Part shown: positions 7,024-18,850 of the stretch, piece by piece
Numbering within the stretch: the stretch's first letter is position 1
Layout: the number at the start of each line of letters is the position of its first letter
DNA from: Planctomycetes bacterium RBG_13_46_10
GTDB taxonomy: Bacteria; Planctomycetota; Phycisphaerae; Sedimentisphaerales; Anaerobacaceae
Length of the DNA: 26,077 nt
Direction: 5' to 3'
Assembly (NCBI GenBank): GCA_001824645.1
Contig: MHYD01000065.1
Location: forward strand, 8,645 to 34,721
The notes under the pieces: model-generated
What the model was told of the DNA's origin: nothing
Seen by the model: the letters and a program-made list of their open reading frames with translations, nothing else
The model's database searches: none
Translations under genes and position numbers: made by a program

Positions 7024-8295
7024 TTAATAAATGCGCTTTTGCCGCACATCCAATACGGAAAGAGATCCAATTTTAACTTGCGGAATTAAGGCAGAGGTCT
7101 GTGCCAGAATACCATATGAACAACCGGCAATAACACAAAACATTATGTTCTTAGGAACAAATGTTCCTCCACCAGAAAGCAGTGTTATAATAAAAAGGAC
7201 TATCGAAGCGCAAAGCAGAGAATAGAACTCCTCTCTGTTAGAGTAAAATCGCGCGCACTGCCGTAAGAGCACAACGTAGAAAGAGCACAGAAAAGCCAGG
7301 CCAAACATACCGTAATTCAACAGGATATCTAGGAATTCCAAATGTGTCCCCATGGCTACACCAAATAGGCTCTCTGTCTTGTCGTAAAACAGACCTGGCT
7401 CACCAAGCATCTTCTGTGGCACACTGGAATTACAAAACATATTCCAACCGAGTGAAATCAAGGTTACACGACCAGAACCACCTACATCTGTGACTCGTTC
7501 CCGCATCGCTGCACCCCATGGCGTGAGATTGAGGAATACAGCTACGGTGAGTATCAGAACAGTCACAGAGACTATTGGCTGGCATGCCAGGACCCTACGA
7601 TCTCTGAAATCGACCAACACAGCGGCGCTGAAAGCGACCAAGGTTGCTAAAAACGATGTTCTGCGAAGAGTGCAGATACTCAGTAACGTAGCGGTTAAGA
7701 AAATAACAATTCTGCCTCTATGCAACACATCATAAACAAAGACGGTCGAAGCCATTGTCAACATCTCGGATATCCCAGCAACGGCTCCACGACTTCCTCC
7801 AAGAACATATGTCGTACCATATTCTGCAGATGTGCCACCCTGGACAAAGTAATAATACACTTGGATTATGCCCGTCGTGAGAATGACAATGACTGCTCTG
7901 CGTTTGATCCAGGTAATGTCGATCATGTTAGTACGGGCCAATGTGACGGATACGACATACGCAAACAGGAAATAACTCATATGGCCTAGAGATATTAACG
8001 GATATGTGCGAAATATCACTGTGCTCGATGCCAGGATATATACCATATAAAAAGTGATGATTTTCGCCGGGGTGTTAAAGGCAGATAACAATTGTGTTGA
8101 ATTCAAGCCCAGTGCCAACAATATGCCAATCGCAAGCAGAATGCCTTTTATCAACTGCAATGACAATAATCCAGAGGTCGTTTTGTCAACCGATAAAGCA
8201 TCAATCACTGGTGTGAGGACAATACACACTGATAGCCACGTACGAATAAACTTGCCTCTATGCCGGTCTTTCCTTTCCACAATTGCCGAAACCAT
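7024..8295 (-). CDS. wzy: O-antigen polymerase/ligase family membrane protein (probable Wzy)
   Basis: About 10 hydrophobic segments; TLRRTSFLA, GSGR..LISLGW and HLEFLDILLNYGMFG resemble Wzy_C; located among the glycosyltransferases. Confidence 0.7.
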   Translation of the reverse strand: MVSAIVERKDRHRGKFIRTWLSVCIVLTPVIDALSVDKTTSGLLSLQLIKGILLAIGILLALGLNSTQLLSAFNTPAKIITFYMVYILASSTVIFRTYPLISLGHMSYFLFAYVVSVTLARTNMIDITWIKRRAVIVILTTGIIQVYYYFVQGGTSAEYGTTYVLGGSRGAVAGISEMLTMASTVFVYDVLHRGRIVIFLTATLLSICTLRRTSFLATLVAFSAAVLVDFRDRRVLACQPIVSVTVLILTVAVFLNLTPWGAAMRERVTDVGGSGRVTLISLGWNMFCNSSVPQKMLGEPGLFYDKTESLFGVAMGTHLEFLDILLNYGMFGLAFLCSFYVVLLRQCARFYSNREEFYSLLCASIVLFIITLLSGGGTFVPKNIMFCVIAGCSYGILAQTSALIPQVKIGSLSVLDVRQKRIY

Positions 8296-9927: not shown

Positions 9928-11985
9928 TCAGCCCCATGTATGTGTTCCATTATCAAAATGAAACATAATCTGCTTCTGGCGCCGGACGATTTGTTTCCCA
10001 AAAAAGGGCCGGAGAATGTTTTTCGGATACTGATTTAGCCAGAGATACCAACCATGTGAACCCCAGCCTTTTGAAAAAAACACGGTATAATCGTACGGTA
10101 CTAGTGCCTTGAAATAATCCTCATCGTATGAGTTAATATGCTCCGTGCCCAGCGTTAAGGTTTCCCTATAGGGGGTTATGATAAACAGGTCATGGCACTT
10201 GGTCAGCAAATGGGCTGCTACTCTAATGTCGTCTGATAGATGCTCGAAGATATTGGATGCAATAATAACATCCACCTCCGGGACATCCGCATAGTCACCT
10301 TGGATAAACTGCGCAAAACTGCCGTATCTCTCTGTACACTTCGTAATTGCTACTTCGGATATGTCCATCCCAATCAGCGAAGCATGTGGATATGCAGCTC
10401 GATACACAGGTATGGCGTCACCGAGGCCGCATCCGAAATCCAGGATCGTGCCTGAGAAGTCAGACGCAATCTTTAAGTACTTTATTTGCATTTCTGCGAA
10501 TTGCTTGGTCTGAGCCCGCCCAAGTTTTTCCTCCCAATCTCCCGTTACGAATCTGTTCTCCCAATAATCTTTTGTATTAATGTTCATAATTCCCCTATGT
10601 TTATCAACAGTGCACACGCCGGTGTGTGAAGCTGCCTTAGCCGCAGTCAGAAGATAGTAGGCAAAGCCAAACACCCAGATTGTGTGGAAAACATAACCCA
10701 CCGCCCTAGCGATAGCCAAACCCAGAGAGCCGTTATCAACAAGGAGCAGCGTGCCCAAGATGAATGTGAAAGCCCAGCCGAGATTCATAGCGAATCCGAC
10801 CCACATCTTTCCAGATGCCGCAATAATCTGCCCAACGGGGGTTTGGATGGCGAGCAGTCCGGTCGTCAAGAGAACAACAACCAGAGTCGGCCAGCCGCTC
10901 TTAAAACCCTCGCCGTAGAGATTCATTATGTAAGGACTGGCGATGCTCGCCAATAGAGCAAGTGGTAACACTAATAGCCCGTTCACCTTAATCGCGAGAA
11001 CCATTGTCTTCATCGTCTGGTTTGTCTCTTTTTGGCCAAGGCGTTCCGAGAGAACTGGTAAAACAACCTGCCCCAGTAAACCCGGAAGAAACATGAGCAT
11101 TACATACCATTGATTGGCTGCATTGTATATCCCCATCTCACCATAGCCATCGGGCTGATTTACCAATAATGCGCTGCATATCCAATCAATGGGGCCAACC
11201 ATTGAACCAGCTAACACTGCCGGCAAACTGAATCTCCATAGAACGGGGAGTTCCCGGCTGCAATCCCCAAAGGCGAAAAGGACGTTGTATCGCCTTGCCT
11301 CTTTACGCAGGGCTAAATGGTTGAGCAGCCAGTTGACGCCGAGGTTAATTGCTAATGCCCAAACCGCTCCGGTAAGGCCGCCGAAATATGCCCCGCCTAC
11401 CAGAATGGGAAAAGAGATCAGGCCGACAAAAAGATTTACATGAGCGATGGTTTTGAAGGCCTCAAACCCCGACAATGCGCCGGTCTGCGCCCCGTTGAGG
11501 GCGTTGATGAACAGTATCAAGGCGCCGATTCGCAATACGCCGGTTAGATGCGGGGCGTTGATCGTGTGCACGGCCAGCAAAGGGGCGAAGATAAACAGCC
11601 CCAGAGCCATCAGGCCACCGGTTAACATGGCGACCAGCCAGGATAGGCTGATAATCCGTCCGGCTCGTGCTGGGTCACTGCTGCGGAATTCCGCAACATG
11701 CTTGGTGGCGGTTAAGCCGAGGCCAAACCCGGCAAACACACCGAACATGCCAACTGTGGACTGTATAATTCCCAATTCACCAAAACCTGTCTTGCCCAGC
11801 ATACGGGCAACGAGAACAGAAGCAGCAAACATCAAGCCGCGTGAGATTACGGCCCCGGCCATCGACCAGAACACTCCTTTTGCCAACCTGTATCCTATCT
11901 CAGAAGCTTCCACACGATTTAAGGCAGGATGCAGGAAATCCGGACAGCAGGTATATATCGCCTTCTTGACGCCGATATTTAGCAT
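9928..11985 (-). CDS. wzx: Wzx flippase (aa 1 to about 445) fused in frame to a class I SAM methyltransferase (aa 467-685)
   Basis: Multi-TM N-part with ARMLG..GFGELGIIQST and GEMGIYNAANQW. C-part has ILDFGCGLG, GMDISEVAI and SNIFEHL. An internal ATG at 10587 is preceded by AGGGGA. Confidence 0.85.
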   Translation of the reverse strand: MLNIGVKKAIYTCCPDFLHPALNRVEASEIGYRLAKGVFWSMAGAVISRGLMFAASVLVARMLGKTGFGELGIIQSTVGMFGVFAGFGLGLTATKHVAEFRSSDPARAGRIISLSWLVAMLTGGLMALGLFIFAPLLAVHTINAPHLTGVLRIGALILFINALNGAQTGALSGFEAFKTIAHVNLFVGLISFPILVGGAYFGGLTGAVWALAINLGVNWLLNHLALRKEARRYNVLFAFGDCSRELPVLWRFSLPAVLAGSMVGPIDWICSALLVNQPDGYGEMGIYNAANQWYVMLMFLPGLLGQVVLPVLSERLGQKETNQTMKTMVLAIKVNGLLVLPLALLASIASPYIMNLYGEGFKSGWPTLVVVLLTTGLLAIQTPVGQIIAASGKMWVGFAMNLGWAFTFILGTLLLVDNGSLGLAIARAVGYVFHTIWVFGFAYYLLTAAKAASHTGVCTVDKHRGIMNINTKDYWENRFVTGDWEEKLGRAQTKQFAEMQIKYLKIASDFSGTILDFGCGLGDAIPVYRAAYPHASLIGMDISEVAITKCTERYGSFAQFIQGDYADVPEVDVIIASNIFEHLSDDIRVAAHLLTKCHDLFIITPYRETLTLGTEHINSYDEDYFKALVPYDYTVFFSKGWGSHGWYLWLNQYPKNILRPFFGKQIVRRQKQIMFHFDNGTHTWG

Positions 11986-13109
11986 ATATTATTGTCCGCA
12001 ATAGCCCGGACTATCCTTTCGCAGGCCTTGCCATCGCCGTAAGGATTCACCGCATTGGCCATAGCAATATAAGACTTCTCATCGGTGAGTAATGTCGAAA
12101 CTTCATCAACGATCATTCTTCTGTCAGTCCCAACAAGCTTGACTGTTCCAGCCCCAACCGCCTCCGGTCGCTCTGTGGTATCTCGCATCACCAACACGGG
12201 CTTGCCGAGGCCGGGCGCTTCTTCCTGTACGCCGCCCGAATCCGTTAAGACGATTCGGCTCCGATCCATAAGGGCTACAAACGACATATATGCCAATGGT
12301 TCAATTAGATAGATATTGCTGCGGCCTGATAAAATATCGAATACCGGTTTTCTCACGTTCGGATTTAAATGCACAGGATAAACGAAAGCTGCATTAGAGA
12401 ACCGCCTTGAAAGCTCCGATATAGCTCCACAGATACTCTCAAAACCGGCACCGAAGTTTTCGCGCCGATGGCCGGTGATAAGAACCACAGGCTTATGACT
12501 ATCTCCATTAAGTAGTTCCACCGGCAAGCTCGGTATAGCGGGTGGATTCTTCCGCACCTTTTCAATTGCGATATGCAGCGCATCGATGACGGTGTTTCCG
12601 GTTATGAAAATTCTGTCTTCGGGTATGCCCTCCCTCAAAAGGTTCTCCTTGGCCCGTTGGGTAGGGGCAAATTGCAGGTCCGCAAGATGGCTTGTCATCA
12701 GCCGGTTGATTTCTTCGGGGAATGGAGAGAACTTATTCCACGTCCTCAAGCCCGCCTCCACGTGACCGATAGGAATCCTGTTATAGAAAGCCGCCAGCGC
12801 CGCACAAAATGTTGTTGTAGTATCGCCCTGGACAATTACGATGTCGGGCCTGTGCCTTGCTACGTAGCTGTCTATTGCAATCACAGCCCGAGAAGTAAGC
12901 CCAGCTAATGTCTGGTCGGGCTCCATAAGATCCAGATCAACATCAGGGACAACCTCGAAAACATCCAGAACCTGATCGAGCATCTGACGGTGCTGTCCGG
13001 TGACGCAGACATGCGGCTGAAACTCCGAATGCCTCTTAAATTCCAGGAACAAAGGACACAGCTTGATAGCCTCCGGCCGAGTACCAAAAATTAGAGAGAC
13101 TTTTTTCAT
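11979..13109 (-). CDS. wecB: UDP-N-acetylglucosamine 2-epimerase (non-hydrolysing)
   Basis: Motifs FGTRPEAIK, TGQHRQML, VQGDTTT, HVEAGLRT, PFPEEINR, TGNTVIDAL, HRRENFG, TDSGGVQEEAP, RDTTERPE and NPYGDG. Confidence 0.97.
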   Translation of the reverse strand: MKKVSLIFGTRPEAIKLCPLFLEFKRHSEFQPHVCVTGQHRQMLDQVLDVFEVVPDVDLDLMEPDQTLAGLTSRAVIAIDSYVARHRPDIVIVQGDTTTTFCAALAAFYNRIPIGHVEAGLRTWNKFSPFPEEINRLMTSHLADLQFAPTQRAKENLLREGIPEDRIFITGNTVIDALHIAIEKVRKNPPAIPSLPVELLNGDSHKPVVLITGHRRENFGAGFESICGAISELSRRFSNAAFVYPVHLNPNVRKPVFDILSGRSNIYLIEPLAYMSFVALMDRSRIVLTDSGGVQEEAPGLGKPVLVMRDTTERPEAVGAGTVKLVGTDRRMIVDEVSTLLTDEKSYIAMANAVNPYGDGKACERIVRAIADNNIC

Positions 13110-13116
13110 TGTAGTA

Positions 13117-13151
13117 GCAGCGGTTAGTTTTTAGCGAATAGCTTATAGCGA
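13117..13151 (+). repeat. Heptamer array A1 (gcagcgg ttagttt ttagcga atagctt atagcga)
   Basis: AG core recurs with exact 7-nt period; the array lies 7 nt upstream of the wecB ATG. Confidence 0.85.
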
Positions 13152-13256
13152 AGTCGAGTAGCCAAGATGACGAGTAGGCGAGAATACGAGCATGCGAGAA
13201 AACGGGTAAAAAGAAGAAGACAAGTATACGAGAAGACGAGAAGTCGAGAAGGCGGC
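13152..13256 (+). repeat. Degenerate octamer array with CGAG core
   Basis: CGAG or variants at 13155, 13163, 13171, 13179, 13187, 13195 and 13203, then after a 2-nt phase shift at 13221, 13229, 13237, 13245 and 13253. Confidence 0.85.
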
Positions 13257-13294
13257 TTTTAGCTAATGGCTATGAGCTATGCGCTAATCACTAC
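13253..13294 (-). repeat. Heptamer array A2 (minus strand gtagtga ttagcgc atagctc atagcca ttagcta aaagccg)
   Basis: 7-nt period; inverted relative to A1 (18/21 match); overlaps the antitoxin stop codon. Confidence 0.85.
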
Positions 13295-13496
13295 TTAGTA
13301 GGTAGCCATTCCGCTTTAACTCTTCCATGACATCTGCATGAGGTATAACCGGCTCTTCCCGCCTCTCAGCAACAACTGCCAAATCTTGCAGATCCTCGAT
13401 AAGCTCTTCATACTCCTCAATAGGCAATATGACAGCTTTTTTATTGCCGTTGACGTCTATTACATATTTGGGATTCAATTTCGGTGCGGAACGCAT
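13284..13496 (-). CDS. Small antitoxin-like protein (RelE-partner type), without an adjacent toxin
   Basis: 70 aa; YVID..G.KKAVILPIEEYEELIEDLQDL...ERREEP.I...V..EL is the pattern of small type II antitoxins usually found upstream of RelE/ParE toxins. Confidence 0.7.
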   Translation of the reverse strand: MRSAPKLNPKYVIDVNGNKKAVILPIEEYEELIEDLQDLAVVAERREEPVIPHADVMEELKRNGYLLSSD

Positions 13497-13600
13497 AACA
13501 TCAACCTTAAGTTTTTCAGTTCTTAGTTTTGGCCAATCGATCCGGTATAACTTTTTTACCTATCGGCAAATATGCCCTGATTCCACTCGTACAAGGCTTG

Positions 13601-13629
13601 ATTATAACGCAATTCTTCAAAACCTGCAA
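13601..13629 (-). promoter_or_regulatory. Sigma70-type promoter TTGCAG-N17-TATAAT
   Basis: -35 at 13629-13624, perfect -10 TATAAT at 13606-13601, 17-nt spacer; about 100 nt upstream of the antitoxin ORF. Confidence 0.6.
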
Positions 13630-13695
13630 TTAAATTCCAGCCGACCAATATTCGCCGATTGTTTTCGCTGATTGAGCCTCCAAACTACACACCGT

Positions 13696-13709
13696 ACGCT
13701 AACCGCTGC
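13696..13709 (-). repeat. Two-unit heptamer remnant A6 (gcagcgg ttagcgt)
   Basis: Overlaps the WecA-like stop codon; 13699-13710 is the perfect reverse complement of 13116-13127. Confidence 0.6.
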
Positions 13710-15150
13710 TTATTACTTTGTGCTCATCGATCAGTCTGCCAAACAGCGTTGCTCGGTGGCCGGCGGATTCGTATGAGCCGTTGACCGTGACGGCTATTTC
13801 AAACTCTATTGGCCCGGCCTTATCGTGATTGCGGAGCGGGATAGTCATAGTAACGACAACAGAGAGGTCCGGCTGAGCTTTGGTTGTTCGCCAGACTTCG
13901 GTGCAAACCGTTCCATCTTTGCCTTTGGTCTTTAGAGAGACCCAGGCGAAGTCCATTTGCTGGGCGGCTCTGCAGACCGCGGACCACCACTGGTCATAAG
14001 TGCGAGCGTTACGAAAATGCAGCTGGACATCCTCGAAGCCTCGTGTCTCCTCGTGTTCCTGGTTGCTTATTGCATATTTTCGCTGGAGGCCCTCAATTGT
14101 TTCTTTTAACCGGACCGAGCCGACGAGCTGGAATGCAAGCAGCAGCAACAATAAAATGCAGAAGAAAACAACAAGCGAGCCAATATTACGAGTGACCATC
14201 ATAAACATCCCCAGGCCGGCGGCTATTAGGGTCACTATATATATCGTCACAACGACGAGGCGTTGATTGAGGCCTAAATCGATGAGTTTGTGGTGGAAAT
14301 GCCTGCGGTCGGCGGCGAATACGGACCGGCGCTCGATGAAACGCCGGAGCATTGAAAAGAGTGTATCGAAAATCGGCACCCCCAGTGCCAGCAGCGGCAG
14401 GGCCAGGCCGACCATAACGGGCGATTTACTCGAGCACAGCACGCTGGAAGAGGCAATTGTGAAACCCAGGAATATACTGCCGCAATCACCCATAAAAATC
14501 TTTGCCGGACTGAAGTTGTAAAACAAAAAACCGCTCAAGCTGCCAAGAAGAGCAAGCATCAATACAGCCATAACAACCTGGCCGTTATGAATGGCAAGTA
14601 TGGCAATCACTCCACAGGCGATAGCGGAAATCCCGGCGGCGAGACCGTCGAGACCATCGCTGAGGTTCACGGCGTTGGTGATACCCACAATCCAGAATAT
14701 CGTCAATGGCCAGGAGAACCAGCCGAAGTTTAGCGTAAGCTGCTCGGTGATAGCGACCGATTCTATCCTGACACCAGCGGTACAGACAGCGATAGCAGCA
14801 GCTATCTCGGCGAGAAACTTTATTCTCGCCCGCAGGCCCTTGGTCTTAATGTCGTCGATCAACCCGATAAAAAATATGAAACCGGCAGCTGAAAGCAGAA
14901 CGGTAAGTTCAGGCAGGATATTGCGGAAGGTATCGCCGATAATGTTCGACAAGAACAGCACGGAAATGCTCAGAGGCATCATCGAAAGAAATATCGCCAC
15001 GCCTCCGATATGCGATATAGGTTTCGTGTGAATGTGCCGCGGACCCGGAACGGCGACGATTTTCAGCCGGCGGGCAAGCCAGATAACAACCGGCGTTATC
15101 ACCAGCGCAAGAAAAGCAGAGCCAAGATATACACACAAATAGGTTTTCAT
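13699..15150 (-). CDS. wecA: MraY/WecA-family polyprenyl-phosphate HexNAc-1-phosphate transferase with C-terminal extension
   Basis: Motifs H..PISHIGG, GLIDD, NAVNLSDGLDGLA, NF.PAKIFMGDCGS, PIFDT and DRRHFHH. Confidence 0.9.
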   Translation of the reverse strand: MKTYLCVYLGSAFLALVITPVVIWLARRLKIVAVPGPRHIHTKPISHIGGVAIFLSMMPLSISVLFLSNIIGDTFRNILPELTVLLSAAGFIFFIGLIDDIKTKGLRARIKFLAEIAAAIAVCTAGVRIESVAITEQLTLNFGWFSWPLTIFWIVGITNAVNLSDGLDGLAAGISAIACGVIAILAIHNGQVVMAVLMLALLGSLSGFLFYNFSPAKIFMGDCGSIFLGFTIASSSVLCSSKSPVMVGLALPLLALGVPIFDTLFSMLRRFIERRSVFAADRRHFHHKLIDLGLNQRLVVVTIYIVTLIAAGLGMFMMVTRNIGSLVVFFCILLLLLLAFQLVGSVRLKETIEGLQRKYAISNQEHEETRGFEDVQLHFRNARTYDQWWSAVCRAAQQMDFAWVSLKTKGKDGTVCTEVWRTTKAQPDLSVVVTMTIPLRNHDKAGPIEFEIAVTVNGSYESAGHRATLFGRLIDEHKVISSG

Positions 15151-15152
15151 GA

Positions 15153-15194
15153 TTAGCTATTAGCGGTTAGCGATTAGCGGATAGCGTTGAGCTA
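15153..15194 (+). repeat. Heptamer array A3 (ttagcta ttagcgg ttagcga ttagcgg atagcgt tgagcta)
   Basis: Six phased units fill 42 of the 47 nt between the NusG-paralog stop and the wecA-like start. Confidence 0.92.
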
Positions 15195-15197
15195 AGA

Positions 15198-15746
15198 CTA
15201 TATCGGCTCCAGCAGGTCGGAGTCGATTTCCACTACAGCGCCCTGGCCGAGGATGGTGACTTCAAGGACCATGCGGGCTTTTGCATCTTTTCTTTTGATT
15301 ACCACACCTTCGATTCCCATCATGGGGCCTGAGATGATTCTGCAGCGGCGGCCTATAGGAAGACGGGGATAATTGTCAATTACGGCCTTGCTCAAAAGAG
15401 CCTTCTCTATTCGCAAAAGCTCTTCGATCAGGCTTTCCTGGTCAGCAACTTCTATCGTTCGGGAGACGCGATTCGTTGTCAGGGCGGTATAGCGGTCCTG
15501 CTCTGTGCCGCAGAAAAACACGTATGATTTGAAAAGAGGTGACATAATGTGCCGTTTGCGGCCGCCGGAGAAAATGACCTTTTCACGCATAGGAAGAAAG
15601 TAGCCTATACCGTGGCTTAACATGTCCCATGCAAAGGCCTTTTCGAATCTCGACTTTGTATAAGCCGCCCACCACGTACCGGTAAAATCGGCAAGGGATT
15701 GGACGTCCGGTGTTAAAATAGCCGGATTTTCAGATAACTTAAGCAT
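15198..15746 (-). CDS. NusG paralog (UpxY/RfaH/LoaP-like transcription antiterminator)
   Basis: NGN domain W..AYTKSRFEK...FLP...PLFKSYVF; KOW motif G.RCRIISGPMMGIEG. Confidence 0.92.
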   Translation of the reverse strand: MLKLSENPAILTPDVQSLADFTGTWWAAYTKSRFEKAFAWDMLSHGIGYFLPMREKVIFSGGRKRHIMSPLFKSYVFFCGTEQDRYTALTTNRVSRTIEVADQESLIEELLRIEKALLSKAVIDNYPRLPIGRRCRIISGPMMGIEGVVIKRKDAKARMVLEVTILGQGAVVEIDSDLLEPI

Positions 15747-15749
15747 TTT

Positions 15750-15784
15750 TTAGCCTTTAGCAATTAGCTCTTAGTGATTAGCGG
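15750..15784 (+). repeat. Heptamer array A4 (ttagcct ttagcaa ttagctc ttagtga ttagcgg)
   Basis: Five phased TTAG units; overlaps the last codons of the four-helix-bundle gene and ends 3 nt before the NusG-paralog ATG. Confidence 0.92.
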
Positions 15785-16136
15785 TCTTTCGAACGGTCTT
15801 AATGAAGGTTGTCAGCATTTTCCTGATTTCTACAAGCTCGACTGAGGATTCCTTGTAACTGCTGTCATCAAGGAGACCAATATTATTAGCAAGCAAAATC
15901 AGATAATCAAGTTCGCTTGCCGAACAGGAGGCTATCTCCATGAAACGAGCCAGTTCAGTGTCGGTATTTCTGCCACAACCTTCTGCTATATTTGTTGGAA
16001 CTGAAGCAGCCGCACGACGAATCTGGCTTATTAGGCCGTATGTTTCCTCTCGTGGAAAAGAGTCAGTGACTTTATAAATCTTTATTGCTAAGCAGTGTGC
16101 CTTATGCCAAACTTTTATATCACGAAAGTTTTTTAT
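15771..16136 (-). CDS. Four-helix-bundle protein (TIGR02436 / '23S rRNA IVS protein' / bAvd-like), non-canonical or damaged start
   Basis: Missing from the ORF track. Reads IKNFRDIKVWHKAHCLAIKIYKVTDSFPREETYGLISQIRRAAASVPTNIAEGCGR...ELARFMEIASCSASELDY...KTANH*. In-frame candidate starts are ATA (16136) or CTG (16163). Confidence 0.88.
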   Translation of the reverse strand: MKNFRDIKVWHKAHCLAIKIYKVTDSFPREETYGLISQIRRAAASVPTNIAEGCGRNTDTELARFMEIASCSASELDYLILLANNIGLLDDSSYKESSVELVEIRKMLTTFIKTVRKTANH

Positions 16137-16167
16137 TTCATATTGGTATTGATTAGGATTCAGTAAT

Positions 16168-16195
16168 TAGCTAATGGCTATCAGCTAATCGCTGC
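16168..16195 (-). repeat. Heptamer array A5 (minus strand gcagcga ttagctg atagcca ttagcta)
   Basis: 7-nt period; opposite orientation to A4 and A3; upstream of the four-helix-bundle gene. Confidence 0.88.
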
Positions 16196-16205
16196 CGTTA
16201 TTTCT

Positions 16206-16234
16206 GCGCGCACTCCGTTCCCCTTAGTGCACGC
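16206..16234 (-). other. RNA stem-loop GCGUGCACU-N11-AGUGCGCGC
   Basis: 9-bp stem whose only non-Watson-Crick pair is G-U on the minus (mRNA) strand; no U-tract follows. Confidence 0.45.
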
Positions 16235-16318
16235 GACAAATTTCTCTATTCTCTCAACCTTCTTCCACAAAATCCCAACATCCTTGAGAAGGCCGAGTCA
16301 TATTATCTTTAAGACGCA

Positions 16319-18850
16319 CTAAGGCGTCGTATTTCCTTCGGCTACAGGTTCGGGCAGGACGGAAAGTTGCTCAATGAGTCTCTTCGCCGGCTCGAATTGT
16401 GGACGAAGGCGCAGGCATATCCTTGCCTCATGGATCGCCTCGGGTGCCTTGCCTGTCTCTGCGTAGAGTCTCGCTAATTCAAATCGCCATTGGACCTGGC
16501 CGTAATCCAAATCCAGAGCCTTGTTGTAATATTCCATAGCCGCTTCATTATTTTTATCTCTTCTGTAAACATATGCAAGAGAGGCATATACAGAAGCTGA
16601 AGCATCCGGGCCGGAACATATTTCTTTTAGCAGCTCTACTACCCGGGCTTGTGCCTTCTCAACTATGTCTTTGTGCTCTTCTATATCCGCAAGAGCATTG
16701 GCTACATAGCTTAGCCATCCGGTATTATCTCCTGCAATAGCTACCGCCAGATCGGGTCGTCCCACGCGATTGATGTATACATCAACAACGTTACGAAAAA
16801 ATCTGCCGTCAAGCTCAACAGCCCTGCTTAGCTTTTCAAATGATGCGTCGATTTGTTGTTCTTCTGTATCGAGAAGGCCGGCGGCAAAACAGACTGTAGG
16901 GTCACAAGGTGCGAGCTTAAAGCCTTTTCGGATACGGTCAGCGCCGTTAGGATCATCCTGAATCAACATCTCAAGCTGTCCGACTATGCAATAGCTTGCC
17001 CCATACGTCGGACAGAGTTGCCGTACTTTATGGAAATCATCGACTATACGGTCCACAAATTCCTTTACTGGTTCGGAGATAATAAGCTCGCCGGTATTCG
17101 GATCGGTAGTTCTGCTTATAGACCTCCAGCGGTAGACGTTAAGCCAGTGCCGATACTCAACGTTGTCAGGCTGATAATCGGCGGCTTTAGCCGCATGTGA
17201 AATCAAGTTTATGTATTCTTCGTCGCTGCCCTGCCAGTTTTCCGCCGCCAGGTTCTGTTCGGCAGCGAGAGCTTTATTCCAGTTCGCCTGGGCAAGCCGG
17301 GCCGTATTGGCGCTGAGCAGAATCCAGGCCCAAACTCCTGATACACACACCAATCCGGCAATGCGCAAGCCTCTTGATAATCGCAGTGCAGTTGCAGTTG
17401 TGCTAAATAGATGGCCTTTTTGTCCAGGCAGTGCTAAGCCCAGCATAAGGGCACAAAATACGGCAGAGAGGAATCCGTTGGCCGGCAGGTGCTGACCAAA
17501 GTCGCTTAAGCTGTGGAGTAAAATTGCCAGCAGCCCAAATCCAAGACCATAAGCCGCCGAGCGAATCGGCACGGATGCGGCTTTTACATTGCGAACATAC
17601 GCTATCCATACCAGGATGCCAAAGACAACCAGAGCTAACAGGCCTGCAATGCCCGTCTCCTCGGCAGCCTGGGCATACTCGTTTTCTGCATAAGCAGCGA
17701 GAGCTGCGATCATTGAGCGGTCGAACATTGAAAATACAACGGAGTGCGTACCCAGCCCCGTTCCAAAGAGGGGGAACTTTGCCCAGGCAGTCGAAATGTC
17801 CTTCAAAATCTGCCAACGGCCTCCTTCCGCCTGCTGTAACTCCTGAAGAGTGGCGAGACGATCATAAACAGCGTCGAAACCTATATAGAGTACACAGATA
17901 AATGCCCCAAGTGCCAGCAAGGCGATTATCCAACCCTGGCCTTTTAGAGACTGTCGCCAACTGAGGATCAACACGGTAAAGGCTGCTGCGATAAACATAC
18001 TTACCATACCACCTCGGGTCAGTGACAGGAAAATCGTAGCTGCTCCGAGAATGATCATTGCTGTGAGCAACCATAGAGTTTTTGCCTCAGACGAGCCAAG
18101 GTATTCGATGACAACAGCAGGGGTAACTTGCTTACCTGTGAATATCTCGTGGGCTTTAACTAATATAAGTGCAAGAGCCGCTCCAATTGATAAATTCATA
18201 AACTGGCCATAGTGGCTATGATTGGCAAAAGGACCGGAATTGGCCCGCCCCCTCTCAAGAGGTACGAGCCAGTATATTTTCCCATTGCCGAGCAGGTCCT
18301 GTGCAATCGCCAGTAAAGCGATTGCACCGCCAATAATGGCGATTGCGCCTAAAAGCCGTTTTATCTGGTCCGGTCGGCGGTATACATTTACAACCACGAA
18401 AAAAACTGCTGCTACGGCTAAAACTAATCGCAGATTCTGTTTTGTGGCGTTTGGATAAAAGCTAAGAGTCATCGAGCTGAGAAACTCACTCGAATTGGGC
18501 AAATCACTAAGAAGCTCTTGCTTCGTCGCAGCAGTGTTCGGCGAAATTATGCTTACCAAGCTCGTTGGCAGGTGAATAAGCTGAAATACAGCTACAAGAA
18601 TAAACAGGGCCACCGGTATATAAACCCAGGACCAAATAATGCGCAGATTTTTTTCAAAGACAAGCTTCAACAAAAAGCAAACGGAAATTGCTGCCGCTAT
18701 GACCAATACGATCTCTTCGCTCCAGGCATGCACAGCGCCGAACGCAAGAGGCATAAATGCGAGAAGCGATATCAGCAGCCACTCAATCACATTATCGAAT
18801 CTGCTCATGCTATCTTCCGTAATACTGAGATCGATTCGGCGTTCTTTCAA
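16319..18850 (-). CDS. O-antigen ligase family (Wzy_C) membrane protein with C-terminal TPR region
   Basis: Motifs GPFANHSHYG, LSLTRGG, GRWQILKD...FPLFGTGLG.H and ENEYAQ..EETG; TPR-like end (AMEYYNKALDLD..., LARLYAETGK..EA). Confidence 0.88.
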   Translation of the reverse strand: MKERRIDLSITEDSMSRFDNVIEWLLISLLAFMPLAFGAVHAWSEEIVLVIAAAISVCFLLKLVFEKNLRIIWSWVYIPVALFILVAVFQLIHLPTSLVSIISPNTAATKQELLSDLPNSSEFLSSMTLSFYPNATKQNLRLVLAVAAVFFVVVNVYRRPDQIKRLLGAIAIIGGAIALLAIAQDLLGNGKIYWLVPLERGRANSGPFANHSHYGQFMNLSIGAALALILVKAHEIFTGKQVTPAVVIEYLGSSEAKTLWLLTAMIILGAATIFLSLTRGGMVSMFIAAAFTVLILSWRQSLKGQGWIIALLALGAFICVLYIGFDAVYDRLATLQELQQAEGGRWQILKDISTAWAKFPLFGTGLGTHSVVFSMFDRSMIAALAAYAENEYAQAAEETGIAGLLALVVFGILVWIAYVRNVKAASVPIRSAAYGLGFGLLAILLHSLSDFGQHLPANGFLSAVFCALMLGLALPGQKGHLFSTTATALRLSRGLRIAGLVCVSGVWAWILLSANTARLAQANWNKALAAEQNLAAENWQGSDEEYINLISHAAKAADYQPDNVEYRHWLNVYRWRSISRTTDPNTGELIISEPVKEFVDRIVDDFHKVRQLCPTYGASYCIVGQLEMLIQDDPNGADRIRKGFKLAPCDPTVCFAAGLLDTEEQQIDASFEKLSRAVELDGRFFRNVVDVYINRVGRPDLAVAIAGDNTGWLSYVANALADIEEHKDIVEKAQARVVELLKEICSGPDASASVYASLAYVYRRDKNNEAAMEYYNKALDLDYGQVQWRFELARLYAETGKAPEAIHEARICLRLRPQFEPAKRLIEQLSVLPEPVAEGNTTP

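What the first reader, a model, noticed from the sequence alone, without database searches (positions are those of the whole stretch)
13131..13287. A2/A1 inverted repeat encloses no gene: a possible empty cassette site
Seen: ttagcgaatagcttatagcga (13131-13151) versus the reverse complement of 13267-13287, ttagcgcatagctcatagcca, gives 18/21, with mismatches only at the variable unit ends. The 115-nt loop holds only octamer repeats. Inference: it has the same bracket architecture as the four-helix gene but with the passenger lost or never acquired. It is also where the toxin partner of the antitoxin would be expected.
Basis: partly seen in the sequence, partly recalled or inferred. Interest (0 to 1): 0.65.

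Follow-up and report, generated by a model that had tools for sequence, protein, structure and literature searches.

The report
Gene-less heptamer hairpin replacing a toxin gene
Two mirror-image runs of a 7-base repeat form a gene-less hairpin just upstream of wecB, where a related contig carries the ParE toxin gene of the neighbouring antitoxin; it is an ordinary member of a repeat class that is very common in this bacterial lineage, not a vacated slot for the four-helix gene.

Summary
13131-13151 and the reverse complement of 13267-13287 match 18/21, and the loop is a period-8 tract.

The arms belong to the TTAGCNN heptamer arrays that also flank the four-helix gene. In the 1.9-Mb draft genome, TAGC-core runs of three or more units occur only in this locus. 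Arm A2 matches arm A5 at 20/21.

The "empty cassette" reading is only partly right.
- A gene did lie here. In metagenome contig L081 the same antitoxin (97% aa) is followed by an intact ParE toxin. Homology with the window stops at the last antitoxin codons and resumes at CTAACCGCTG, so the hairpin occupies the toxin's place.
- That toxin has no such arms in L081.
- A relative that lacks the four-helix cassette at the orthologous site (L073/L074) has no arms at all.
- Gene-less inverted heptamer arrays are the commonest form in this genome and order.

So this is a hairpin element, not a vacated four-helix slot.

Its likely role is a long imperfect stem in the operon mRNA, acting as a processing or insulating site. 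This is inferred, not shown.

At the DNA level the arrays vary by whole units between strains, and one lies at an allele breakpoint.

The scan has described the four-helix/heptamer cassette before on other DNA. Inverted heptamer arrays are already in print.

The parts
13131..13151 (-). Arm A1a. It is the downstream (GCUAA-type) arm of the hairpin in the mRNA. It has three heptamer units, in phase with the units at 13117-13128.
   Evidence: The unit phasing was read.
13117..13128 (-). A1b, the right outer inverted repeat (CTAACCGCTGCT on the mRNA strand). It forms the last units of the A1 array. It is complementary 12/12 to the 3' end of wecA, and its core CTAACCGCTG is conserved in L081 at 7512-7521.
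13152..13266 (-). The 115-nt loop. It is a period-8 tract reading (CUUCUCGN)n on the mRNA strand. Composition is U 47, C 37, G 16, A 15. It is predicted to be unusually unstructured.
   Evidence: TRF. MFE -6.9 against shuffles -11.9 +/- 2.6, and all 200 shuffles fold at least as well. (composition); about 70% alignment to an octamer tract in L108.
13267..13287 (-). Arm A2, the upstream (UUAGC-type) arm. The array extends over about 13259-13290 and overlaps the antitoxin stop codon.
   Evidence: A2 matches A5 at 20/21.
13284..13496 (-). Orphan RelB/Phd-type antitoxin gene of 70 aa. Its last codons differ from L081, starting at window position 13299.
   Evidence: PF18506, E 8e-8..
13497..13698 (-). 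Leader or spacer of the toxin-antitoxin module. It is 90% identical to L081.
   Evidence: A metatranscriptome contig covers 13470-13640.
13699..13710 (-). A6, the left outer inverted repeat (AGCAGCGGTTAG on the mRNA strand). It encodes the last codons and the stop of the wecA-like gene. The 98%-identical strain L072 diverges at 13707.
11979..13109 (-). wecB (UDP-GlcNAc 2-epimerase). Its start codon lies 21 nt downstream of arm A1a.
   Evidence: PF02350, E 1.6e-123.
13699..15150 (-). WecA-like initiating glycosyl-1-phosphate transferase.
   Evidence: PF00953; about 575 related metagenome stretches.
15151..15197 (-). A3, a GCUAA-type array that fills the upxY-wecA spacer. It differs by whole 7-nt units between strains.
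15747..15782 (-). A4, the downstream arm of the four-helix cassette.
15771..16136 (-). Four-helix-bundle gene (PF05635). The start codon reads ATA here and ATG in L072.
16155..16197 (-). A5, the upstream arm of the four-helix cassette.
   Evidence: (I1).

Best explanation
The feature is a gene-less hairpin element. It consists of two short arrays of the locus-specific TTAGCNN heptamer in opposite orientation (A2 and A1), around a 115-nt period-8 pyrimidine-rich tract. It lies in the spacer between an orphan RelB-type antitoxin gene and wecB, inside a co-directional exopolysaccharide operon of a Planctomycetota-like sediment bacterium.

History (shown by comparison). A relB/parE module with a 10-12-bp terminal inverted repeat (AGCGGTTAG ... 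CTAACCGCT) sits next to the 3' end of wecA. In this genome the parE toxin gene, about 258 nt, has been replaced by the 170-nt segment A2 + octamers + A1a.

Origin of the arms (inferred).
- A1a is in phase with the CTAACCG CTG units that end the module in L081, and is read here as an upstream extension of them.
- A2 is a near copy of the upstream arm of the four-helix cassette, and of the post-wecA arm of sister strains.
- So the arms most likely spread locally by slippage and gene conversion. They are not what is left of a cassette that lost its gene.

Mechanism (inferred, not shown). On the polycistronic mRNA the arms form a 21-bp imperfect stem. A further 7 bp can extend it, and the duplex is about -28 kcal/mol. 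The stem closes an unstructured loop and ends 21 nt before the wecB AUG.
- By analogy with the heptamer-bearing stems of 23S rRNA intervening sequences, which RNase III cuts, and with intercistronic REP hairpins, it most likely acts as a processing site or an exonuclease barrier.
- That would uncouple wecB from the upstream transcript.
- A1 can instead pair with A6 and loop out the whole antitoxin segment.

At the DNA level the arrays change by whole units and mark a point where alleles of the locus diverge.
For: Identity and class:
- Heptamer phasing and the inverted match are confirmed.
- TAGC-core arrays are unique to this locus in the own genome.
- Period 7 dominates short tandem repeats in the own genome: 343 arrays against 103 of period 6 and 87 of period 8.
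- Of 18 strictly defined inverted heptamer pairs, 15 have loops of 0-111 nt (one pair overlaps by 4 nt).
- TAGCNNN x4 arrays occur in 74 of 301 genomes of the order. In the places read they are intergenic, and several are short-loop inverted pairs: L008, L014, L015, L021, L027, L035.
- Inverted heptamer-array pairs between co-directional ORFs are in print for Xanthomonas: 70-75 pairs, mostly transcribed, with the same orientation rule (PMC4692102).

History:
- L081 6795-7255 is 90% identical to window 13763-13299.
- Homology ends at GAATGGCTACCTA and resumes at CTAACCGCTG. An intact ParE ORF lies between these points in L081.
- ParE follows the antitoxin in 22 of 33 related loci.
- Independent toxin decay is seen in L154 and L162.

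Local spread of arms:
- A2/A5 match 20/21, and A2 shares ATAGCCATTAGC...TAAAAGCC with the post-wecA arm of L072.
- There is a clean 7-nt indel in A3 between strains that are 98% identical, and a further one in L074.
- L072 diverges at window 13707, inside A6.

RNA folding:
- The arm duplex is -27.9 kcal/mol, against -11.1 +/- 3.0 for shuffled arms.
- The stem appears in both the MFE and centroid folds.
- The loop is less structured than all 200 shuffles.
- RNase III cuts the heptamer-bearing stem of the Coxiella intervening sequence (PMC4990558).
Against: - There is no transcript or cleavage data for this site. RNA runs hold only the antitoxin leader of this or a related module.
- The whole 196-nt region folds no better than shuffles (z -0.48).
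- In the 626-nt transcript model the MFE structure uses A6:A1 rather than A2:A1.
- No homologue of the A2/A1 pair exists, so covariation cannot be tested.
- The element is young and present in one lineage only, which fits a neutral by-product as well as a function.
- The middle of the octamer tract is not bridged by independent contigs.
Confidence: 0.45

Rival explanations
1. Neutral by-product. The arrays are selfish or mutational debris that expanded into the dead DNA of a decayed toxin gene. The hairpin has no role in expression.
For: - The element is absent from every relative found.
- Arrays change by whole units between near-identical strains.
- The genome carries 192 period-7 arrays of many sequences.
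- Ordinary genes can look 'bracketed' simply because neighbouring spacers hold arrays of one family: C44 44880-45808 and C2 3929-5088.
- Arm complementarity is no higher than the family baseline.
Against: - Arrays keep a strict orientation rule relative to genes here, in relatives and in Xanthomonas. The sense-type array follows stops and the complementary type precedes starts. That suggests constraint at the transcript level.
- The GCUAA array in the upxY-wecA spacer is retained at the same position in several diverged relatives: L072, L073/74, L086, L102, L120.
Confidence: 0.3
2. One reading: an empty cassette site. The bracket once held, or is ready to receive, a passenger such as the four-helix gene.
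For: - The array family is the same as in the four-helix cassette, and A2/A5 match 20/21.
- The four-helix gene occupies different junctions in relatives: wzy|upxY in L072 and L090, upxY|wecA in L080, and after wecA in L098 and L144. So cassettes do come and go in this locus.
- A frameshifted copy exists in L144.
Against: - The orthologous empty site in L073/74 has no arms, so arms and gene come and go together.
- The loop shows no trace of a four-helix gene.
- The gene that occupied this place in a relative is parE, and there it has no arms.
- Gene-less pairs are the commoner form.
Confidence: 0.1
3. Rho-dependent attenuator. The 115-nt C-rich, G-poor, unstructured loop is a rut-like site that makes wecB expression depend on the operon's NusG-paralogue antiterminator (UpxY/RfaH-like).
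For: - The loop has C/G = 2.3 and 73% pyrimidine.
- It is less structured than all 200 shuffles.
- A NusG paralogue is encoded 2 kb upstream.
- A conserved candidate recruitment motif lies upstream of that gene.
Against: - In L108 a related octamer tract occurs as a purine-rich run followed by a pyrimidine-rich run. Pyrimidine richness may therefore be a by-product of being half of a hairpin.
- The tract is enclosed by a stem that would hinder Rho loading.
- There is no experimental data.
Confidence: 0.1
4. Invertible promoter (inverton). The 21-bp inverted repeats flank a 115-bp switch that turns wecB on or off.
For: The geometry fits: inverted repeats around about 100 bp, directly upstream of a polysaccharide gene, in an operon with a UpxY-like gene, as in Bacteroides capsule loci (own knowledge).
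Against: - No promoter-like site lies inside 13110-13290 on either strand.
- No recombinase is found in the 26-kb window.
- The same architecture occurs with zero-length loops elsewhere in the genome.
- Only one orientation appears in independent contigs. This is weak evidence.
Confidence: 0.03

Closest known systems
Inverted pairs of intergenic heptamer repeats (GGGAATC arrays of Xanthomonas; Rehm et al. 2015, PMC4692102). Related: TAACTGA arrays of Beggiatoaceae, Cyanobacteria and Bacteroidetes (MacGregor 2015, PMC4679880).
   Same: - The units are 7 nt, with 2-5 units per array.
- The arrays lie between co-directional ORFs.
- One array follows a stop on the sense strand, and the partner precedes the next start on the other strand.
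- Unit number varies.
- There is potential to form a stem-loop.
   Different: - The unit sequence differs (TTAGCNN, not G-rich), so no quadruplex is expected.
- In this genome the family is confined to one locus.
- The loop is itself a period-8 repeat.
- Here the element can be shown to stand in the place of a deleted gene.
ORF-bearing intervening sequences of 23S rRNA (Coxiella burnetii helix 45, Warrier et al. 2016, PMC4990558; also Leptospira), and the heptamer-armed four-helix-bundle cassettes found earlier in this scan.
   Same: - A long imperfect stem built from inverted arrays that contain tandem heptamers.
- Heptamer copy number varies between strains.
- The same arm family flanks a PF05635 gene 2.5 kb upstream in the same operon.
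   Different: - There is no PF05635 ORF in the loop.
- The element lies in an mRNA spacer, not in rRNA.
- RNase III cleavage has not been tested here.
REP/BIME-type intercistronic hairpins of enterobacteria (own knowledge).
   Same: An imperfect palindrome between genes of one operon, with a proposed role as an mRNA 3'-end protector or decoupler of neighbouring cistrons.
   Different: - It is not a dispersed family of near-identical copies. This sequence is unique in the genome.
- No RAYT-type transposase was looked for.
- The arms are built from tandem heptamers.
relBE/parDE type II toxin-antitoxin modules.
   Same: - The flanking gene is a RelB/Phd-type antitoxin.
- Its relatives are followed by ParE.
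   Different: In the window the toxin gene is missing and is replaced by the hairpin.

Membership tests
Inverted intergenic heptamer-array pair (as in Rehm 2015) | Tandem 7-nt units in each arm | tested here: met
   TRF on the genome reports period 7 with 3.0 copies (A1) and 2.6 copies (A2). The units were also read directly.
Inverted intergenic heptamer-array pair (as in Rehm 2015) | Two arrays of one unit family in opposite orientation, close together | tested here: met
   The arms match 18/21 and are 115 nt apart.
Inverted intergenic heptamer-array pair (as in Rehm 2015) | Located between co-directional ORFs: the sense array after a stop and the complementary array before the next start | tested here: met
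   A2 overlaps the antitoxin stop. A1 ends 21 nt before the wecB ATG. Both genes are on the minus strand.
Inverted intergenic heptamer-array pair (as in Rehm 2015) | Unit-number variation between strains | tested here: inconclusive
   This is met for the sister array A3, which shows 7-nt indels. No second allele of A1/A2 was found.
Heptamer-armed four-helix-bundle cassette / 23S IVS-like element | A PF05635 ORF between the arms | tested here: not met
   No ORF of 40 aa or more lies in 13152-13266. Neither blastn nor an HMM finds a trace.
Heptamer-armed four-helix-bundle cassette / 23S IVS-like element | Inverted arms able to form a long stem | tested here: met
   The predicted duplex is -27.9 kcal/mol.
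Heptamer-armed four-helix-bundle cassette / 23S IVS-like element | Excision of the stem-loop by RNase III | not testable with these tools
   No RNA data cover the site.
Type II relB/parE toxin-antitoxin module | Antitoxin gene | tested here: met
   PF18506 with E 8.2e-8 and PF02604 with E 1.3e-5.
Type II relB/parE toxin-antitoxin module | Toxin gene directly downstream of the antitoxin | tested here: not met
   It is absent in the window. It is present in L081 and in 22 of 33 related loci.
Invertible promoter (inverton) | A promoter inside the segment and a site-specific recombinase | tested here: not met
   No promoter-like site lies in 13110-13290. No recombinase domain is found among the window's proteins.
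Intrinsic terminator | A G+C-rich stem followed by a U run | tested here: not met
   None was reported at the site. The stem is followed by AAAAACUAACC.
REP/MITE-type dispersed element | Many near-identical copies in the genome | tested here: not met
   The arrays and the octamer tract are unique to this locus.
Integron attC site | Core sites RYYYAAC/GTTRRRY and an integron integrase | tested here: inconclusive
   GTTAGCG has C at a purine position, read from the sequence. The integrase was not searched for.

The most novel reading that the evidence does not exclude
The TTAGC-type arrays form an operon-wide pairing code. Any upstream-type array (A5, A6, A2) can pair with any downstream-type array (A4, A3, A1), with predicted duplexes of -22 to -36 kcal/mol. 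One polycistronic transcript could therefore loop out different segments and have them excised by a double-strand RNase. The possible segments are the four-helix gene, the four-helix gene plus the antiterminator, the antitoxin segment, or only the octamer loop. That would be a splicing-like choice of which cistrons stay linked. The same arrays would also serve as break points for swapping modules of the polysaccharide locus between strains.
Probability: 0.1. Interest if true: 0.75.

Novelty: new member of a known kind. Interest (0 to 1): 0.35.

Why it matters
Short 7-base repeats fill the spaces between genes in several bacterial phyla, and nobody knows why. This locus gives a rare dated example.
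- A hairpin of such repeats has taken the place of a toxin gene.
- Sister arrays differ by exact units between near-identical strains.
- One array marks the point where two alleles of a surface-polysaccharide locus diverge.

The locus also shows that a pair of arms without a gene should not be read as a vacated four-helix cassette. At a truly empty orthologous site the arms are missing too. If the stems are cut or block RNases in the transcript, they would be a general way of setting the relative expression of genes in long operons of poorly studied bacteria.

Tried and rejected
- Rfam at permissive thresholds on 12900-16400, and on L072 and L108, gave no match.
- The upstream region of wecB in four order-level relatives (L002-L005) shows no synteny, no arms and different neighbours.
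- Exact-protein look-ups for wecB and the antitoxin found nothing on record.
- No sequencing run holds more than 28% of the sampled words. The RNA runs cover only the antitoxin leader, so no transcript ends are available for the hairpin.
- A strict period-8 CGA x4 pattern is found only at this site. The related L108 tract was found only by low-stringency alignment.
- The L108 fold is not better than shuffles (z -0.58). I therefore do not claim that the octamers form a selected hairpin.
- PF13366 (GxxExxY) genes of this genome were checked as a possible trans-acting nuclease for hairpins. Their flanks are direct repeats of another unit, not inverted, so no link was made.
- A fuzzy-regex motif scan timed out and was replaced by a Hamming scan.
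- Chance, intrinsic terminator and inverton readings were considered and rejected. See the rivals and the membership tests.

Full report
**Setting.** All genes of the window lie on the minus strand and form an exopolysaccharide locus.
- The gene order is Wza-like exporter, Wzc-like kinase, CpsB-like phosphatase, Wzy-TPR, a four-helix-bundle gene (PF05635), a NusG paralogue (UpxY/RfaH-like) and a WecA-like initiating transferase.
- These are followed by a RelB-type antitoxin, WecB, a Wzx-methyltransferase and glycosyltransferases.
- The window is contig C65 of a draft genome of 1.93 Mb. The draft is 68% complete, has 93 contigs and is 43.8% G+C.
- Its NusG paralogue clusters with Planctomycetota proteins.
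- The closest record for the antitoxin is a Planctomycetota MAG.

**The observation.** It is correct.
- 13131-13151 and the reverse complement of 13267-13287 match 18/21.
- The 115 nt between them is a period-8 tract: TRF 13150-13251, 12.5 copies, consensus GAAGACGA.
- There is no credible ORF between the arms.
- It is the only inverted pair at 18/21 or better within 300 nt in a 7-kb neighbourhood.
- Runs of three or more TAGC-core heptamers occur nowhere else in the genome. All eight matches lie in this locus, at about 13131, 13262, 15154, 15751 and 16170.
- The match itself carries little extra information. Every upstream-type array of the locus (A2, A5, A6) matches every downstream-type array (A1, A3, A4) at 12-17/21, or 15-17/21 among the full arrays A2-A5.
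- Predicted duplexes for these pairs are -22 to -36 kcal/mol, against -11 +/- 3 for shuffled arms.

**The class it belongs to.** Period-7 arrays are the dominant short tandem repeat of this genome.
- There are 343 TRF rows of period 7, against 103 of period 6 and 87 of period 8. Of the period-7 rows, 192 have 2.5 or more copies.
- A strict search found 18 inverted pairs. Fifteen have loops of 0-111 nt (one pair overlaps by 4 nt), one holds a four-helix gene, and two merely span ordinary genes.
- Each of the five PF05635 genes of the genome is flanked by inverted arrays, and each has a different unit.
- Across the order, TAGCNNN x4 arrays occur in 74 of 301 genomes. In the places read they lie between genes, and several are short-loop inverted pairs.
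- PF05635 genes occur in 235 of 301 genomes. In the 30 loci fetched they are almost always bracketed by inverted heptamer arrays whose sequence differs from locus to locus.
- Earlier agents of this scan have described this cassette repeatedly on other DNA.
- Inverted heptamer pairs without a gene are in print for Xanthomonas (PMC4692102).
- Heptamers in the stem of an ORF-bearing 23S intervening sequence that RNase III cuts are in print for Coxiella (PMC4990558).

**What stood here before.** A search of metagenome contigs with the WecA-like protein returned 80 loci that share the module wzy-(four-helix)-upxY-wecA. Three comparisons matter.

(i) L081.
- L081 6795-7255 is 90% identical to window 13763-13299. 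That block covers a wecA 3' fragment, the 200-nt leader and the antitoxin (97% aa).
- Homology stops at GAATGGCTACCTA, the last antitoxin codons, and resumes at CTAACCGCTG.
- Between those points L081 has an 86-aa ParE toxin ORF that overlaps the antitoxin stop (PF05016, E 6.7e-14).
- The window has A2 + octamers + A1a there instead.
- The toxin in L081 has no A2/A1-type arms.
- Both sequences keep the same outer inverted repeat. It is AGCAGCGGTTAG / CTAACCGCTGCT in the window, and a 10-bp core at L081 6861-6870 / 7512-7521.
- Read in 7-nt phase, the window's A1 is CTATAAG CTATTCG CTAAAAA CTAACCG CTGCTAC. L081 has only CTAACCG CTGGAGT. I therefore read A1a as an upstream extension of the module's terminal units.
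- ParE follows the antitoxin in 22 of 33 related loci from many phyla.
- The closest of these, L154, has an internal deletion of parE followed by a gene-less hairpin of another heptamer.

(ii) L072.
- L072 is 98% identical to the window from 20158 down to 13707 and then diverges, inside A6.
- Downstream it carries a TTAGCNN x5 arm, about 650 nt without an ORF longer than 58 aa, and a GCTAANC arm that abuts the ATG of a wzx gene.
- The post-wecA arm and the start of this noncoding stretch are conserved in L073, L074 and L109.
- A2 shares ATAGCCATTAGC...TAAAAGCC with that arm, and matches A5 at 20/21.

(iii) The wzy|upxY junction.
- The window and L072 carry arm - four-helix gene - arm there.
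- L073/L074, at 78% identity, carry neither gene nor arms, only 30 unrelated bases.
- An empty site is therefore armless. This agrees with earlier checks in the scan that arms and gene travel together.

Two things are right: a gene once lay here, and this is the toxin's place. The bracket idea is not supported.
- The arms are not the remains of that gene's cassette.
- They are not conserved as a pair in any relative.
- Gene-less pairs are the norm.

Relatives do carry a gene here, but the arms are not conserved as a pair.

**How it probably works (inference).**
- In the mRNA the arms pair. The stem is present in both the MFE and centroid folds, and a 7-bp extension is possible.
- The stem closes a loop that is less structured than all 200 shuffles, with C/G = 2.3.
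- The stem ends 21 nt before the wecB AUG.
- No U run follows the stem, and no promoter-like site lies in the loop.
- The closest tested analogue is the intervening-sequence stem cut by RNase III. REP-type intercistronic hairpins are a second analogue (own knowledge).
- I therefore favour a role as a processing site or exonuclease barrier that decouples wecB from the upstream transcript.
- A1 can pair alternatively with A6. The model of the 626-nt transcript prefers that pairing.
- A neutral origin with no function is nearly as likely.

DNA-level behaviour is shown rather than inferred. Whole-unit indels occur in A3 between strains, and an allele breakpoint lies in A6.

**Limits.**
- There is no RNA evidence at the site.
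- There is no second allele of A1/A2.
- The centre of the octamer tract (13154-13222) is not bridged by independent contigs.
- The relationship of the octamer tract to the one in L108 rests on a 70% alignment of low-complexity sequence.

Noticed in passing
window 16206-16236 (minus strand): A motif of about 31 nt, GTGCAC-N5-GGGGA(A)CGGAGTGCGCGC, lies upstream of the NusG-paralogue gene, or of wecA where that gene is missing. It matches with 4 or fewer mismatches in 63 of 80 related metagenome loci. In most it sits in the spacer upstream of upxY or wecA, and a few weak matches lie elsewhere. At 1 mismatch it is unique in the own genome. It is a candidate recruitment (ops-like) site or leader hairpin for the operon's antiterminator. 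The four-helix cassette is inserted just downstream of it.
   Followed up: partly
window 16134-16136: The four-helix gene has no ATG, GTG or TTG start. The codon that is ATG in the 98%-identical strain L072 reads ATA here. The gene is either silenced or uses a rare start.
   Followed up: partly
window 15151-15197; L072 4958-5000; L074: The upxY-wecA spacer consists of GCTAA heptamers. It differs by exactly 7 nt between the window and L072, and by a further 7 nt in L074.
   Followed up: yes
L072 6453-7153; also L073, L074, L109: In sister strains the wecA-downstream junction carries a TTAGC arm, about 650 nt with no ORF longer than 58 aa and no Rfam match, and a GCTAA arm abutting the next start codon. 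This is a large gene-less bracket. Its arm and the first 220 nt read are conserved down to 78% identity.
   Followed up: partly
L081 6430-7660: The relB/parE module is flanked by two direct copies of a wecA 3'-end fragment, each about 90% identical to the window's wecA. The contig's own wecA is only 70% identical. This suggests repeated recombination at the wecA 3' end. A DUF433 gene lies between.
   Followed up: partly
L154 3190-3390 (Planctomycetota MAG): The closest database relative of the antitoxin (83% aa) has an internal deletion of parE: its first about 10 nt and last about 20 nt are kept. It is followed by a gene-less hairpin of CAAAGGN/CCTTTGN heptamers.
   Followed up: no
G000 C12:60754-60879, C38:4142-4272, C59:1379-1539, C73:10627-10769: Four copies of a hairpin element have CGAAATC/GATTTCG heptamer arms and a partly conserved 76-111-nt loop. 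This is a dispersed family, unlike the TTAGC arrays.
   Followed up: no
L108 2575-2890: The wzy-upxY spacer of this relative holds GCTAA heptamers and the conserved motif. After them comes a purine-rich period-8 tract, about 70% alignable to the window's loop, followed by a pyrimidine-rich tract.
   Followed up: partly
G000 C67:7057-7395 and C78:4964-5311: Two PF13366 (GxxExxY, PD-(D/E)XK) genes are flanked by direct, not inverted, repeats of CACGGATT-like units.
   Followed up: no
L098 1752-1790: In one relative wecB follows wecA after only 29 nt. The spacer contains one TTAGCGA unit and one GCTAAG unit. wecB appears truncated after about 44 codons, and a four-helix gene lies 1.1 kb further on.
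   Followed up: no
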